From contig JAEUJY010000077.1 of NCBI GenBank assembly GCA_016794525.1, positions 45,091 through 109,090 of the forward strand: 64,000 nt of DNA. The letters are read 5' to 3'. The notes under the pieces are model-generated. The model was not told the DNA's origin. It saw only the letters and a program-made list of their open reading frames with translations, and made no database searches. A program made the position numbers and the translations under genes. Origin of the DNA: Myxococcales bacterium. Lineage in GTDB: Bacteria; Myxococcota_A; Polyangia; Haliangiales; Haliangiaceae. Position 1 is the first letter of the stretch. Every line of letters starts with the position of its first letter. Shown here piece by piece: positions 42,440 through 53,327 of the stretch.

Positions 42440-42525
<86 letters not shown>

Positions 42526-42605
42526 GGCTGACAACCGAATAGCTCGATCGTCGTTTTCTTTCTCGCTCGCCCATGGCGGTCCACCAGGTCCGCTAGATGG
42601 TCGAA

Positions 42606-42698
<93 letters not shown>

Positions 42699-42764
42699 GA
42701 CTTGGCCGCTGCGAGCGCTCCGTATCGCTCGCGTCCGCTTCTCTATGTCCTAGCTTTTGTGTTT

Positions 42765-42840
<76 letters not shown>

Positions 42841-43326
42841 ATGAGCATCGACCCCGTCACCGATGACGACCTGATGCTGCTCGCCCTCGAAGAGGCGCGG
42901 GCAGCCGGGGCCCATGGTGACGTCCCGGTCGGCGCGATCATCGCGGTGCCCGCCGACGGCCGCTTCGCGGTCATCGGGCGTGGCCACAACCGCCGCGAAC
43001 AACGTGGCGATCCCACCGCGCACGCCGAGATCGAGGCGCTGCGCGACGCCGCCGCCCACCTGGGTCACTGGCGGGTCGAGGCCACGCTGGTCGTCACCCA
43101 GGAGCCGTGCCCGATGTGCGCCGGCGCGCTGGTCAACGCCCGCGTCCGCCGCCTCGTCTACGGCTGCGACAACCCCAAGGCCGGGGCCGTCGCCAGCCTG
43201 TTCACCATCTGCACCGACCCGCGCCTCAACCATCGGCTCGAGGTCGTCGCCGGCGTCCGCGCCAGCGAGTGTGCCGCCGAGCTCAAGCGCTTCTTCGAGG
43301 CGCTGCGGGCCCAGGGGCAACGCTAG
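42841..43326 (+). CDS. tadA: tRNA-specific adenosine deaminase TadA.
   Basis: CDA zinc motifs HAEIEA and PCPMCAGA. Starts directly after tRNA-Arg(ACG). Confidence 0.85.
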   Translation: MSIDPVTDDDLMLLALEEARAAGAHGDVPVGAIIAVPADGRFAVIGRGHNRREQRGDPTAHAEIEALRDAAAHLGHWRVEATLVVTQEPCPMCAGALVNARVRRLVYGCDNPKAGAVASLFTICTDPRLNHRLEVVAGVRASECAAELKRFFEALRAQGQR

Positions 43327-43362
43327 TCTCTGTACCCGGTGCGGAATGCGCCGGGACGTCGA

Positions 43363-43457
<95 letters not shown>

Positions 43458-43598
43458 TGATCCGTGCACCCGGTGCGCGGCGCGTGAGCCCGGGACGTTT
43501 TCCCGGGCGGGTTTCGAGAGCTCGTGACGTGAACCAAGCCATCGCGAGGTGGCGAGGGGCGCTGCGTGGGGCCTCGTGACGGTTTCTGTGAAGTGTCT

Positions 43599-43685
<87 letters not shown>

Positions 43686-43721
43686 ACGGTCACGACCGCC
43701 GACGATCGAGCTACACCCGAT

Positions 43722-43812
43722 TTATGGTCCCGGGTGACACGACGTCTGTGAACCCCGCCAGGTCCGGAAGGAAGCAACGGTAGCGGAACTAGTGGGTGCC
43801 TGGGGCCACTTT
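43722..43812 (+). ncRNA. ffs: Signal recognition particle RNA (4.5S / ffs, small bacterial type).
   Basis: Contains the conserved domain-IV sequence CCAGGTCCGGAAGGAAGCA. The 5' GGTCCCGGG can pair with the 3' CCTGGGGCC to close the helix. Not protein-coding. Confidence 0.55.
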
Positions 43813-43815
43813 TCT

Positions 43816-43856
43816 TCGAGGGCGACTCTCACGAGTCGCCCTCGAGCCTTTTTCGG
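43816..43856 (+). terminator. Rho-independent terminator.
   Basis: 12-bp perfect stem CGAGGGCGACTC / GAGTCGCCCTCG with TCAC loop, followed by a TTTTT run (agcctttttcgg). Confidence 0.55.
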
Positions 43857-49447: not shown

Positions 49448-51302
<1,855 letters not shown>

Positions 51303-51310
<8 letters not shown>

Positions 51311-51635
51311 CAAGATGCCCGACATGCAGGCGCTGATGCGCCAGGCCCAGCAGATGCAAGCCAAGGTGGCCAAGGCGCAGGAGGAGGTCCTGTCGATGAC
51401 CGCCGACGGCGCCGCCGGCGGTGGCATGGTCACCGTGACCGTCAACGGCGCGTTCGACGTCACCAAGATCAAGATCGAGAAGGACGTCGTCGATCCCAGC
51501 GACATCGGCATGCTCGAAGACCTGGTGATGTCGGCGGTCAACGCCGCCAACGCGCGCATGCGCGAGGTCACCAAGCAGCACATGAGCAAGGTCATGGGCG
51601 GCATGAACATCCCCGGCATGCCGGGCATGTTCTGA
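51303..51635 (+). CDS. ybaB: Nucleoid-associated protein YbaB/EbfC.
   Basis: 110 aa with MQALMRQAQQMQ...VTVNG...KIEKD. Overlaps the dnaX stop by 8 nt. Confidence 0.85.
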
Positions 51636-51643
51636 GACAAAGA

Positions 51644-51735
51644 GAGGGTCTTTCGCAAAGACCCTCGCGTGTTGTGAGGAGGGTCTTTCGCAAGGACCCT
51701 CGCGTGGTTGAGGAGGGTCTTTCGCAAAGACCCTC
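51644..51735. repeat. Three tandem REP-like palindromic units.
   Basis: gagggtctttcgcaaagaccctc repeated three times at about 34-nt spacing. Each has a 7-bp stem and 9-nt loop. No T-tract follows. Confidence 0.65.
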
Positions 51736-51886
51736 CCCCGGCATTCGCCGGGGCCCCCACCCGAAACGGCCCGGAGCGTTCAGCGGAGCGCGGGGGCGAC
51801 CGCCGACGAGACGCGCGCAGGGCCGTGGCGAGCGGCTGTCAGCGCCGGCGCCCGATCGATCGCGCGGGTCGCGCGTGGAGGTCGGC

Positions 51887-52609
51887 ATGCTCTCTCTCGC
51901 GCGCGCGCTCCTCGTCCTCGTCCTCGGCGCGTGCGCCACGCACGACGCGCGGCACGCGCGATCGCTGGCCGCGCGCGCGGCGTGCGGCGACGACGGCCTG
52001 GCGGTGTTCGGCTTCCCGCGCCACGAGACGCAGTGCACCGACGACGTCGCCGCGCTCGGCGACGGCTGCTACGCGGTCGTGACCCCGTCCGCGACCGCGC
52101 TGGTCGAGTGCGTGGCCGCCGCGCCCGATGGCCACGTCATGTGCCTGCAGGATCCGCGGCCGCGCCCGGCGCTGTTCGCCGGCGACCCGGTCCGGATCGA
52201 GACCTGGGTGTGGCAGCGCGGCCAGCCCGCCATCGCGAAGGTCGCGATGGGCCGCTGCCGGCCGCGGTTCGCGGCGTGGACCGCGCGGCACGAGGCGCCG
52301 GTGCCGGCGCCCGAGCTGGCGATCAGCGACTGGTACTCGCCCACGGGGTGGGCGCTGCCCCCGGCGCCCGCGATCCGCTTCACGCCGCCGATCGACCGCG
52401 GCGCCTTGCAGGCGCTGATGCCCGCCGGCGCGCTCGAGATCGAGGTGTGCCCGGTGGCCGCGCCGCCGGGCATCGCGGTGACCCGGGTGCCGGTGCCGCT
52501 GGCGGCGGGGCTGGCGCCGGCGGTGGTCGACGCGCTGGTGCGCTGGGGCCGGCCGCTGCAGAGCTGCCGGTCGATCGTCGTCGGGTTCGTCGGCGCGCAC
52601 CTGACGTGA
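51887..52609 (+). CDS. Hypothetical lipoprotein inserted between ybaB and recR.
   Basis: ATG at 51887 with GGAGG upstream. Lipo-box LLVLVLGAC. Confidence 0.5.
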   Translation: MLSLARALLVLVLGACATHDARHARSLAARAACGDDGLAVFGFPRHETQCTDDVAALGDGCYAVVTPSATALVECVAAAPDGHVMCLQDPRPRPALFAGDPVRIETWVWQRGQPAIAKVAMGRCRPRFAAWTARHEAPVPAPELAISDWYSPTGWALPPAPAIRFTPPIDRGALQALMPAGALEIEVCPVAAPPGIAVTRVPVPLAAGLAPAVVDALVRWGRPLQSCRSIVVGFVGAHLT

Positions 52610-52648
52610 TCCGCGCCGGCGGCGGTTCGTGCTACGCAAGGAGGCGCG

Positions 52649-53251
52649 ATGGCGGCCGATCCGATCCAGCGACTGGTCCGCGAGCTGGCCCGCCTGCCGG
52701 GCATCGGCGAGAAGTCGGCGACCCGCCTGGCGATGCACCTGGTGCGCTCGCCCAAGCCGCAGGTGCGCGAGCTGGCACAGGCGCTGATCGACGCCACCGA
52801 GCAGATCGGCCTGTGCTCGACCTGCATGACGCTGACCGCCGAGGATCCCTGCCGGCTGTGCGCCGACACCCGCCGCGACAACGACGTCGTGTGCGTGGTC
52901 GCGCAGCCGTCCGACGTGATCGCGATCGAGCGCGGCGGTCACTACCGCGGCCGCTACCACGTGCTGCACGGCGTGCTGGCGCCGCTCGACGGCATCGGCC
53001 CCGACGATCTGCGCATCGCCGAGCTGGTGCGGCGGCTGGCGCCGGTCGGCGGCCCCCCGGTGCACGAGGTCATCGTCGCCACCGCGCCGACCGTCGAGGG
53101 CGAGGCCACGGCGATGTACCTGGCGCGGCTGATCAAGCCGCTGGGCGTGCGGGTCACCCGGATCGCGACGGGCCTGCCGGTCGGCGGAGATCTCGAGTAC
53201 AGCGATCAGGCCACCATCGGTCGGGCCCTTGCCGGCCGCACCTCGCTGTAG
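52649..53251 (+). CDS. recR: Recombination protein RecR.
   Basis: HhH motif LPGIGEKSA; C4 zinc finger CSTCMTLTAEDPCRLC; Toprim domain. Confidence 0.9.
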   Translation: MAADPIQRLVRELARLPGIGEKSATRLAMHLVRSPKPQVRELAQALIDATEQIGLCSTCMTLTAEDPCRLCADTRRDNDVVCVVAQPSDVIAIERGGHYRGRYHVLHGVLAPLDGIGPDDLRIAELVRRLAPVGGPPVHEVIVATAPTVEGEATAMYLARLIKPLGVRVTRIATGLPVGGDLEYSDQATIGRALAGRTSL

Positions 53252-53327
53252 CCGAGCGCCAGCGATTCTCTGGGCGACGCGTACAGCCTCCTGGCTGCGA
53301 CCCGGGCGGCTCGGCTACCCTGGCGTC

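What the first reader, a model, noticed from the sequence alone, without database searches (positions are those of the whole stretch)
51303..53251. Conserved dnaX-ybaB-recR cluster interrupted by REP-like hairpin triplet plus a lipoprotein gene
ybaB and recR are normally adjacent. Here a triple palindrome (gagggtctttcgcaaagaccctc x3, no T-tract) and a 240-aa lipoprotein gene lie between them. This is consistent with a REP-mediated insertion, or with the hairpins acting as an mRNA-stabilising or attenuating element.
Basis: partly seen in the sequence, partly recalled or inferred. Interest (0 to 1): 0.5.

Follow-up and report, generated by a model that had tools for sequence, protein, structure and literature searches.

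The report
Stop-codon-hugging hairpin repeat family after ybaB
The three hairpins after ybaB are a locally triplicated piece of a small repeat family, scattered through the genomes of a narrow group of myxobacteria, that sits directly behind stop codons; the lipoprotein gene next to it arrived separately.

Summary
dnaX, ybaB and recR are confirmed. Three 23-nt palindromes (two exact, one with an A>G change that gives a G-U pair) lie 8 nt after the ybaB stop. A 240-aa orphan lipoprotein gene follows.

The palindrome is not unique. It is module H1 of a modular, oriented repeat: a 12-nt leader, H1, a second hairpin H2, a C-rich tail and a variable module 3. H1 has 57 exact copies in two related Kofleriaceae-like MAGs, and further diverged copies exist. 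In 40 of 45 scorable arrays, the first H1 starts -2 to 15 nt after the stop codon of a co-oriented gene. One array starts 12 nt after a tRNA 3' end.

In relatives the repeat and the lipoprotein gene occur independently: some have the gene without the repeat, one has the repeat without the gene, and 35 more distant relatives have neither. H1 copy number at this site is 3, 1 or a half remnant. "REP-mediated insertion" is therefore not supported.

The family behaves like REP or MITE-type repeats but fails canonical REP tests: no GTAG, and direct rather than inverted arrays. A RAYT transposase could not be tested genome-wide.

The likely role is a co-transcribed 3'-UTR stem-loop stack acting as an exonuclease barrier or attenuator, possibly sensed by the terminating ribosome. 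This role is inferred, not shown.

The parts
49448..51310 (+). dnaX (DNA polymerase III tau/gamma), 620 aa
   Evidence: Pfam DNA_pol3_delta2, DNA_pol3_gamma3 and DNAX_ATPase_lid.
51303..51635 (+). ybaB (nucleoid-associated YbaB/EbfC), 110 aa. The stop codon TGA is at 51633-51635.
   Evidence: Pfam PF02575, E = 4e-30. The C-terminus ...PGMF* and the stop position are shared with relatives that lack the repeat.
51632..51643 (+). 12-nt leader of the repeat (CTGAGACAAAGA, 'type A'). It overlaps the last base of the final ybaB sense codon and the stop codon.
   Evidence: The same nTGAGAnnnnnn leader precedes H1 in L013, L026, L027, L033 and L036.
51644..51666 (+). H1 copy 1: GAGGGTCTTT-CGC-AAAGACCCTC, a 10-bp stem with a 3-nt loop.
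   Evidence: RNA folding energy -13.7 kcal/mol.
51667..51678 (+). Internal 12-nt leader/spacer GCGTGTTGTGAG ('type B', consensus CGTGTTTCCAGA).
   Evidence: The same leader lies between H1 copies, or right after stop codons, in L003, L009, L010, L014, L018 and L035.
51679..51701 (+). H1 copy 2, with an A>G change in the 3' arm. This gives a G-U pair on the + strand RNA and would give a C-A mismatch on the - strand.
   Evidence: Folding energy -13.4 kcal/mol.
51702..51712 (+). Internal 11-nt spacer GCGTGGTTGAG.
   Evidence: The tandem period is 35/34 nt.
51713..51735 (+). H1 copy 3. This copy corresponds to the single H1 in orthologous loci.
   Evidence: Covariance model hit of 86 bits over 51713-51777.
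51736..51753 (+). H2 hairpin: CCCCGGC-ATTC-GCCGGGG.
   Evidence: Folding energy -14.9 kcal/mol. Across family members the fifth pair is A-U in 30, G-C in 13 and C-G in 1.
51754..51767 (+). C-rich tail CCCCCACCCGAAAC.
   Evidence: Nearly invariant across 47 aligned copies. It occurs once in the window.
51768..51789 (+). Module 3, subfamily GGCCCGGAGCGTTCAGCGGAGC. In some other copies this is the 5' half of a longer hairpin.
   Evidence: Shared with L009, L032, L046, L050 and L060. Homology with L060, which lacks the lipoprotein gene, ends at 51789.
51790..51886 (+). Upstream leader of the lipoprotein gene. Its core, GAGCGGCTGTCAGCGCCGGCG, is conserved.
   Evidence: The core is conserved upstream of lipoprotein homologues that sit in unrelated contexts (L053, L056).
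51887..52609 (+). Orphan lipoprotein gene, 240 aa, lipobox LGAC. Function unknown.
   Evidence: 8 homologues at 63% identity or more, and no Pfam or NCBIfam match. The AF2 model has mean pLDDT 52 and finds no fold match.
52649..53251 (+). recR, 200 aa.
   Evidence: Pfam RecR_HhH, RecR_ZnF, Toprim_4 and RecR_C.

Best explanation
Shown.
- The three palindromes are three tandem copies of a 35-nt unit: a 12-nt leader plus the 23-nt hairpin H1.
- H1 is the first module of one ~150-nt copy (51632-51789) of a modular, strictly oriented, dispersed repeat: leader, H1 (1-3 copies), H2, the tail CCCCCACCCGAAAC, and a variable module 3.
- The family is confined to a narrow clade of Kofleriaceae-like Myxococcota.
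- The first H1 always lies in the sense orientation, 0-15 nt behind the stop codon of the upstream gene. In one case it lies 12 nt behind a tRNA 3' end.
- The ancestral state is ybaB directly followed by recR.

Inferred from the distribution among relatives.
- The orphan lipoprotein cassette, with its own leader, entered first.
- The repeat was then inserted immediately after the native ybaB stop codon.
- H1 was later amplified from 1 to 3 copies in this genome, probably by slippage between the direct repeats.
- In other relatives the locus changed differently: L057 kept only half an H1, and L060 probably lost the lipoprotein gene.

Inferred mechanism.
- The family is a non-autonomous, REP/MITE-like repeat that is, or recently was, copied around the genome.
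- Once in place it is transcribed as the 3' UTR of the upstream gene and folds into a stack of stable stem-loops. Here there are four, of -13.4 to -14.9 kcal/mol each.
- The stack would block 3'-to-5' exonucleases and partly attenuate read-through into the lipoprotein gene and recR.
- H1 starts 8 nt after UGA, so it lies partly inside the footprint of the terminating ribosome. It may therefore also tune translation termination of ybaB, as shown for E. coli REPs within 15 nt of a stop codon.
For: Dispersed family.
- 52 loci carry the palindrome. There are 38 exact copies in MAG JADJGV01, 19 in JAGPCY01, and one each in two other MAGs.
- A covariance model finds 77 hits in 415 kb of those loci, about 20 of them extra diverged copies. 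It finds no other site in the window and none in the ybaB loci of more distant relatives.

Modular architecture.

Position and orientation.
- 40 of 45 scorable arrays start -2 to 15 nt after a co-oriented ORF stop, with a mode of 6-8 nt. The other 5 scored hits lie 37-41 nt away: two sit behind a degenerate first copy, and three are antisense-oriented hits beside a convergent gene.
- In the antisense direction there are almost no nearby ORF ends.
- In L014 the repeat starts 12 nt after tRNA-Leu.

Structure is kept by compensatory change.
- H2 pairs switch between A-U, G-C and C-G.
- H1 variants are doubly compensated, for example GAGGACCTTT..AAAGGTCCTC.

Filled versus empty sites. In 4 of 4 comparisons the stop codon is native and the sequences diverge 0-2 nt after it.

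Locus history.
- 35 more distant loci have ybaB-recR adjacent, without repeat or lipoprotein gene.
- L062 has the lipoprotein gene without the repeat.
- L060 has the repeat without the lipoprotein gene.
- L013, L058 and L059 have one H1.
- L057 has half an H1.

H1 arms are 100% identical between genomes whose flanking genes are only 78-92% identical. This implies ongoing copying or strong sequence constraint.

Read-through is likely. In L060 the recR ATG lies about 20 nt after the repeat, with no room for a promoter.

Precedent. E. coli REPs within 15 nt of a stop codon stall ribosomes and lower translation (PMC12306157, citing Liang et al. 2015).
Against: - No transcript data exist, so every RNA-level role is inferred.
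- Stem substitutions show no clear strand asymmetry: 5 G-T type versus 3 A-C type. They therefore do not favour an RNA hairpin over an ssDNA hairpin.
- Sequence identity among copies, not just conserved structure, is not needed for a stabiliser. It points to mobility or a sequence-specific partner that was not identified.
- No transposase was found. No RAYT-like ORF occurs in about 0.8 Mb of sampled DNA.
- The genomes do use ordinary hairpin plus T-tract terminators elsewhere. The family is therefore not needed for termination.
Confidence: 0.55

Rival explanations
1. A purely selfish ssDNA-hairpin element with no host function. It would be mobilised by a Y1 (IS200/IS605-type or RAYT-type) transposase that recognises H1 on one strand and inserts 3' of a short target such as NTGA or GTRA. 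Selection would remove insertions inside genes. Together these would leave copies only right behind stop codons and only in the sense orientation.
For: - The base before the stop and the bases after it are conserved in classes: cTGAGAC..., or gTGAt..aGA with T[GA]A at -9..-7 in 19 copies.
- Insertion lies 0-2 nt after native stops in 4 of 4 filled/empty comparisons.
- H1 is identical in sequence across genomes that are 78-92% identical in flanking genes.
- Orthologous genes carry different subfamilies, which indicates turnover.
- Each module is amplified in tandem somewhere.
- IS200/IS605 elements insert 3' of a fixed tetranucleotide chosen by a guide sequence next to the hairpin (PMC8266576).
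Against: - No Y1 transposase was found in the sampled DNA.
- The tRNA-adjacent copy follows GGCA, not NTGA.
- TAA and TAG stops are also used.
- No defined right end or target duplication could be delimited.
Confidence: 0.25
2. An unconventional transcription terminator family. H1 plus H2 would stop RNA polymerase without a U-tract, or would load Rho on the C-rich tail. This would end the dnaX-ybaB transcript and uncouple the lipoprotein gene and recR.
For: - Copies always lie at gene 3' ends, and once after a tRNA.
- The GC-rich stems are stable.
- In some copies module 3 forms a long hairpin followed by a T-rich run, as in L031 and L034.
Against: - No T-tract follows H1 or H2 on the sense strand.
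- Canonical hairpin plus T-tract terminators exist in the same window.
- In L060 recR begins about 20 nt after the repeat with no room for a promoter, so read-through must occur.
- Copies are no more common between convergent genes than expected: about 31 co-directional versus 17 convergent.
Confidence: 0.1
3. Double-stranded DNA binding sites: a palindromic operator or a nucleoid-protein site for a dimeric protein. Three sites spaced about 35 bp apart would give cooperative binding between ybaB and the lipoprotein gene.
For: H1 is a perfect 10+3+10 palindrome whose sequence, not just its structure, is conserved. The period of 34-35 bp is about 3.3 helical turns.
Against: - Strict orientation relative to the upstream gene, and the fixed distance to stop codons, make no sense for a symmetric dsDNA site.
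- Compensatory arm changes preserve pairing while altering the sequence a protein would read.
- Most loci have a single H1.
Confidence: 0.05
4. One reading: the repeats mediated insertion of the lipoprotein gene between ybaB and recR.
For: - The left edge of the window-specific segment relative to L060 lies inside module 3 of the repeat, at 51789/51790.
- L060 keeps a leader-like CGTGACCTTGA and a 10/11-nt match to the lipoprotein 3' end.
Against: - L062 has the lipoprotein gene in the same place and no repeat.
- L060 has the repeat and no lipoprotein gene.
- The window has no repeat copy on the recR side of the gene.
- The short L060 match is not significant: score 15-21, against up to 32 in shuffles.
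Confidence: 0.05

Closest known systems
REP / BIME elements of Enterobacteria, Pseudomonas and Stenotrophomonas (RAYT/TnpAREP-associated)
   Same: - Short (23 nt) extragenic palindromes present in many copies.
- Located in 3' UTRs and between co-directional genes.
- Often in tandem arrays with variable copy number.
- Lineage-specific sequence.
- Group 3 REPs are likewise perfect palindromes with a 3-4 nt loop (PMC8266576).
- A subset of E. coli REPs lies within 15 nt of stop codons and affects translation (PMC12306157).
   Different: - No GTAG-type tetranucleotide lies next to the stem.
- Arrays are head-to-tail, not REP/iREP pairs.
- Each copy carries a fixed second hairpin and a C-rich tail on one side.
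- About 90% or more of arrays are within 15 nt of a stop, against 11-52% in E. coli.
- No RAYT was seen, although this was not testable genome-wide.
IS200/IS605-derived miniature elements (PATEs) and their ssDNA transposition (from the paper cited and my own knowledge)
   Same: - A strand-specific hairpin lies near one end.
- A short conserved sequence lies a few nucleotides 5' of the hairpin and could be a target or cleavage site.
- There are no terminal inverted repeats.
   Different: No cognate TnpA, no defined right-end hairpin or cleavage site, and no single target motif were established.
MIRU (mycobacterial interspersed repetitive units), from my own knowledge (Supply et al. 1997)
   Same: - Intergenic units of 35-100 nt oriented with the flanking genes.
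- They abut or overlap the upstream stop codon.
- They occur as tandem repeats whose copy number differs between close strains.
   Different: MIRUs are defined by small ORFs that overlap both the stop and the next start codon, not by strong hairpins. Here the unit is a perfect palindrome and does not reach the next start codon.
Rho-independent terminators
   Same: A GC-rich stem-loop directly after a gene.
   Different: No U-tract, and identical sequence at dozens of loci.

Membership tests
REP/BIME (RAYT-associated repetitive extragenic palindromes) | Short (20-50 nt) palindromes, extragenic, in many copies per genome. | tested here: met
   H1 is a 23-nt palindrome. There are 38 and 19 exact copies in two MAGs, all outside ORFs. 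Further diverged copies were found with the covariance model.
REP/BIME (RAYT-associated repetitive extragenic palindromes) | A conserved GTAG (GTRG) tetranucleotide directly 5' of the palindrome (PMC8266576). | tested here: not met
   Positions -4..-1 have the consensus nnGA on the sense side and GGGG on the antisense side. GT[GA][AG] does occur, but 6-12 nt upstream and as part of the stop-codon context.
REP/BIME (RAYT-associated repetitive extragenic palindromes) | REP and inverted REP paired in BIMEs or REPINs. | tested here: not met
   All arrays (window x3; L007, L008, L016, L018, L048 x2) are head-to-tail with the same loop orientation, CG[AC].
REP/BIME (RAYT-associated repetitive extragenic palindromes) | A cognate RAYT/TnpAREP gene flanked by the repeats (a REPtron). 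| tested here: inconclusive
   tblastn with E. coli RayT against the window plus 137 loci (about 0.8 Mb) gave a best E-value of 0.22. That hit falls on the opposite strand of a dnaN gene. Whole genomes could not be scanned.
Rho-independent (intrinsic) terminator | A GC-rich hairpin followed within a few nucleotides by a U-tract. | tested here: not met
   The hairpin is present, but H1 is followed by GCG or CCCC and H2 by CCCCCACCC. The consensus scan reports only a - strand site at copy 1.
IS200/IS605-type miniature element (PATE) | Subterminal hairpins at both ends, a fixed target tetra- or pentanucleotide abutting the left end, and a Y1 transposase in the genome. | tested here: inconclusive
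   The left hairpin and recurrent nTGA/GTRA contexts are present. The right end is undefined because module 3 is variable. No transposase was found in the sampled DNA.
dnaX-ybaB-recR conserved cluster | The three genes in this order on one strand, with ybaB and recR adjacent. | tested here: not met
   Order and strand are kept, but adjacency is broken by 1013 nt (51636-52648). 35 relatives keep gaps of 5-150 nt.
Bacterial lipoprotein | An N-terminal signal peptide ending in a lipobox [LVI][ASTVI][GAS]C. | tested here: met
   The protein starts MLSLARALLVLV-LGAC. The cysteine is invariant in 8 homologues. Lipidation itself is not testable here.

The most novel reading that the evidence does not exclude
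The family is a new kind of non-autonomous element whose insertion is aimed at the nucleotide just past the end of a gene product: the stop codon of ORFs and the 3' end of a tRNA. It always inserts in the sense orientation. This would imply one of two mechanisms. One is a single-strand transposase with an NTGA-like target, filtered by selection. The more radical one is insertion guided by the 3' end of a transcript or by the terminating ribosome. Each 35-55 nt module would be independently amplifiable.
Probability: 0.2. Interest if true: 0.7.

Novelty: new variant of a known kind. Interest (0 to 1): 0.45.

Why it matters
No small dispersed repeat of this kind turned up for Myxococcota in the literature I could search. 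This family is unusually disciplined. It has one orientation and one position, hard against the stop codon. Its modular build includes parts that expand and contract between near-identical genomes.

If placement reflects function, it offers a natural series for studying how a 3' stem-loop inside the ribosome footprint affects termination, mRNA decay and operon read-through in a high-GC bacterium. That series has 0.5, 1 or 3 hairpins at one site, and 0-15 nt spacings at other sites. If placement reflects targeting, it points to an unrecognised insertion specificity.

For annotation, it explains why a textbook cluster (dnaX-ybaB-recR) looks 'interrupted'. It also shows that the interruption is two unrelated events.

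Tried and rejected
- Rfam, at gathering thresholds on the whole window and at permissive thresholds on 51560-51900: no meaningful family.
- Viral contig scan for the palindrome: 0 hits.
- RAYT search by tblastn with E. coli RayT: nothing credible. The best hit lies antisense to dnaN.
- G-U versus A-C asymmetry in H1 variants, to tell RNA from DNA hairpins: too few variants (5 versus 3), so inconclusive.
- Lipoprotein function: no Pfam or NCBIfam match. The AlphaFold model has mean pLDDT 52, and Foldseek against the PDB found nothing below E = 1. The afdb50 library was unavailable.
- The idea that L060 retains a remnant of the lipoprotein 3' end: the 10/11-nt match is positionally suggestive but scores below shuffled controls, so it was dropped as evidence.
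- A selenocysteine SECIS reading (a hairpin just after UGA): rejected because TAA and TAG stops and a tRNA end are also used, and the downstream frames are closed.
- A CRISPR-like array: rejected because the spacers are 11-12 nt and conserved.
- Literature searches for REP-type repeats or terminators in Myxococcus: nothing relevant.
Full report
**What is in the window**

- Pfam confirms dnaX (49448-51310), ybaB (51303-51635) and recR (52649-53251). mglB and mglA lie further downstream, which places the window in Myxococcota.
- The 23-nt palindrome GAGGGTCTTT-CGC-AAAGACCCTC occurs at 51644-51666, 51679-51701 and 51713-51735.
- The middle copy has one A>G change. It keeps a G-U pair on the + strand and costs 0.3 kcal/mol.
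- No shuffle of the window gives a single match.
- No T-tract follows any copy on the + strand.
- The ORF at 51887-52609 encodes a 240-aa protein with a signal peptide and lipobox (LVLGAC).
- That protein has 8 homologues at 63% identity or more. One is 100% identical and comes from a MAG labelled Myxococcales bacterium (JNK64), evidently the source genome.
The repeat, however, extends beyond the third palindrome.

**The palindrome is one module of a larger, dispersed repeat**

- I scanned one genome per species for GAGGGTCTTTNNNAARGACCCTC. This returned 52 loci: 35 in MAG JADJGV01 (Myxococcales bacterium), 15 in JAGPCY01 (Kofleriaceae bacterium), and single hits in two other MAGs.
- These loci hold 38 and 19 exact copies in the two main MAGs.
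- When the copies are lined up, all show the same asymmetric architecture:
  - H1;
  - a second hairpin H2 directly after it, of the form CCCC...GGGG with a variable inner stem;
  - the tail CCCCCACCCGAAAC;
  - one of a few 'module 3' sequences.
- The window copy has exactly this continuation: H2 at 51736-51753, the tail at 51754-51767 and module 3 to about 51789.
- H1 is preceded by a 12-nt leader. The same leader serves as the spacer inside arrays, so the true unit is 35 nt, which matches the tandem period.
- Each module can be amplified in tandem somewhere:
  - H1 twice in L007, L008, L016, L018 and L048, and three times here;
  - a 55-nt tail module four times in L014;
  - module 3 twice in L060, L015 and L028.
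- A covariance model built from 47 copies gave these results:
  - no other site in the 64-kb window;
  - about 20 additional diverged copies in the 415 kb of sampled loci;
  - no hits in the ybaB loci of more distant relatives.
- The family is thus moderately abundant and clade-restricted.

**Structure is conserved**

- In H2 the fifth pair is A-U in 30 copies, G-C in 13 and C-G in 1. Whole inner stems are swapped for other self-complementary sequences.
- H1 variants are doubly compensated. Examples are GAGGACCTTT..AAAGGTCCTC at an orthologous site in L014, and AAGGGGCTTT..AAAGCCCCTT.
- This shows selection for a hairpin. It cannot say whether the hairpin forms in RNA or in ssDNA, because the G-T versus A-C mismatch counts (5 versus 3) are uninformative.

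**Position and orientation**

- I oriented each array by its own asymmetry and then asked what lies upstream.
- In 40 of 45 scorable arrays, a long, high-GC3, co-oriented ORF ends -2 to 15 nt before the first H1, with a mode of 6-8 nt.
- The other five scored hits lie 37-41 nt from an ORF end. Two sit behind a degenerate first copy, and three are antisense-oriented hits beside a convergent gene.
- Arrays that my crude ORF filter missed still show a stop triplet within 15 nt.
- In the antisense direction almost no ORF ends are nearby.
- One copy starts 12 nt after the 3' end of tRNA-Leu(CAA).
- Stop codon usage is TGA 34, TAG 6 and TAA 5.
- The next gene downstream is co-directional in about 31 cases and convergent in about 17. 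This shows no special preference for operon ends.

**Filled versus empty sites**

- Four comparisons were available:
  - L047 versus L018;
  - L032 versus L030;
  - the tRNA-Leu site in L014 versus L012;
  - the ybaB site in the window versus L062 and L063.
- In all four the stop codon (or tRNA end) is native, and the sequences diverge within 0-2 nt after it.
- The leader falls into recurrent classes that include the stop codon itself:
  - cTGAGAC....;
  - g/cGT[GA]A....GA;
  - a full CGTGTTTCCAGA leader placed straight after the stop.
- I cannot tell whether this reflects an insertion target or selection.

**History of the ybaB-recR locus**

I retrieved 80 ybaB loci from metagenomes, graded by identity.

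| Loci | YbaB identity to window | Repeat after ybaB | Lipoprotein gene |
|---|---|---|---|
| 35 loci, L064-L099 | 44-85% | none of this family (L064 has a different hairpin pair) | absent; recR starts 5-150 nt after ybaB |
| L062 | 94% | absent | present (63% identical) |
| L013, L058, L059 | 99% | one H1, H2, tail, module 3 | present |
| L057 | 98% | only the 5' arm of H1 | present |
| L060 | 97% | one H1, H2, tail, two module-3 copies | absent; the recR ATG follows about 20 nt later |
| window | - | three H1, H2, tail, module 3 | present |

- In L060, homology to the window stops at 51789 and resumes exactly at 52649.
- Lipoprotein homologues at 71-74% identity lie in unrelated neighbourhoods (L053-L056). 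They keep a conserved upstream leader of about 60 nt, so the gene moves as a cassette with its own 5' region.
- The most economical history has four steps:
  1. ybaB and recR were adjacent.
  2. The lipoprotein cassette was inserted.
  3. The repeat was inserted just after the ybaB stop.
  4. Local changes followed: H1 triplication here, decay in L057, and probable loss of the lipoprotein gene in L060.
- The repeat and the lipoprotein gene are therefore independent.

**Turnover**

- Genes flanking orthologous copies in the two MAGs are 78-92% identical, yet the H1 arms are usually 100% identical.
- The same orthologous gene can carry different H2 subfamilies and leader lengths in the two genomes. 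Examples are L006/L004, L027/L037 and L012/L014.
- This needs ongoing copying, replacement or gene conversion, or a sequence-specific partner. Structural selection alone would not explain it.

**Comparison with known kinds**

- *REP/BIME.* REPs are defined as 20-50 nt palindromes preceded by GTAG, usually paired as REP/iREP, and linked to a RAYT gene (PMC8266576).
  - This family meets the first criterion.
  - It fails GTAG and the inverted pairing.
  - No RAYT-like ORF occurs in about 0.8 Mb of sampled DNA, but whole genomes could not be searched.
- *Intrinsic terminators.* The family fails the U-tract criterion, while ordinary terminators exist in the window, for example at 43816-43845 after the SRP RNA.
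- *Rfam.* No matching family.
- *Stop-codon proximity.* In E. coli, 11-52% of REPs lie within 15 nt of a stop codon, and those stall ribosomes and lower translation (PMC12306157, citing Liang et al. 2015). Here about 90% or more of arrays are within that distance.
- *Other resemblances.* These are noted from knowledge only: IS200/IS605-derived miniature elements (strand-specific hairpin, a target motif next to the left end) and mycobacterial MIRUs (oriented, abutting the stop codon, variable tandem copy number).

**Mechanism I commit to**

- It is a non-autonomous, REP/MITE-like repeat, copied by an unidentified mechanism.
- It is transcribed as the 3' UTR of ybaB and folds into four stable stem-loops beginning 8 nt after UGA.
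- I infer that the stack acts as a 3' exonuclease barrier and a partial attenuator between ybaB and the lipoprotein-recR genes.
- It may also affect translation termination, because it lies within the ribosome footprint.
- Read-through must be possible, since L060 leaves no room for a recR promoter.
- The dispersed-repeat identity and the locus history are shown. The RNA role is inferred.

**Lipoprotein**

- It has no Pfam or NCBIfam match, and only 8 homologues, all in this clade.
- It has eight invariant cysteines.
- The AlphaFold model is poor (mean pLDDT 52) and finds no PDB fold match.
- Its function remains unknown.

**Verdict**

- This is a real and tidy feature, and a new variant of a known kind of small repeat.
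- Its one striking property is its strict position and orientation against stop codons.
- Interest is moderate (0.45).

Noticed in passing
window 53251-53308, compared with L013:5072-7357, L058, L060 and L064: Close relatives carry about 2.3 kb extra between recR and the second lipoprotein gene. It encodes four tandem InlB-B-repeat-like (Flg_new_2) domains. The window, L057 and L059 lack it.
   Followed up: partly
L014:1700-2028 (- strand): After tRNA-Leu(CAA) the repeat carries four tandem copies of a 55-nt tail module (CCCCCACCCGAAACGCGAGAGCGTTCAGCGGAGGTGGGGGCGTGGCCGCAAGCGG). Modules other than H1 therefore also behave like VNTRs.
   Followed up: partly
L064:2548-2667: In a relative with 85% YbaB identity, a different pair of hairpins (GGGAGGGCTGTTCGTCAGCTCTCCC and TCGATTCCGGAATCGA) sits right after the ybaB stop. 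This may be another repeat family in the same niche.
   Followed up: no
L060:712-787: Just upstream of the recR ATG there is a leader-like CGTGACCTTGA without H1, plus a 10/11-nt match to the last 11 nt of the lipoprotein ORF. The position is suggestive of a deletion scar, but the match is not statistically significant.
   Followed up: yes
window 51605-51632: The last codons of ybaB (NIPGMPGMF) form a 28-nt near-palindrome, GAACATCCCCGGCATGCCGGGCATGTTC, ending immediately before the stop codon. This adds another potential stem just upstream of the repeat (pair I8).
   Followed up: no
window 42440-43845: Five tRNA genes are followed by the SRP RNA (43721-43815). A canonical 13-bp hairpin plus T-tract terminator follows at 43816-43845. 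dnaX lies 5.6 kb further on rather than directly after the SRP RNA gene.
   Followed up: no
window 50726-50752 and 50813-50839: The proline-rich linker of DnaX contains an exact 27-nt direct repeat, ACCACCGAGCGCGTGCCCGAGCGGATC, which encodes TTERVPERI twice.
   Followed up: no
window 51790-51886; L053 and L056 upstream of the lipoprotein homologues: A conserved core, GAGCGG(C/G)TGTCAGCGC(C)GGCG, lies about 45-65 nt upstream of the lipoprotein start, even where the gene sits in unrelated neighbourhoods. It may be a promoter or regulatory site that travels with the gene.
   Followed up: partly
window 51887-52609, compared with L013: The lipoprotein is only 84-85% identical between genomes whose flanking YbaB, RecR and DnaX are 96-99% identical. 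It is either evolving fast or was exchanged by recombination.
   Followed up: no
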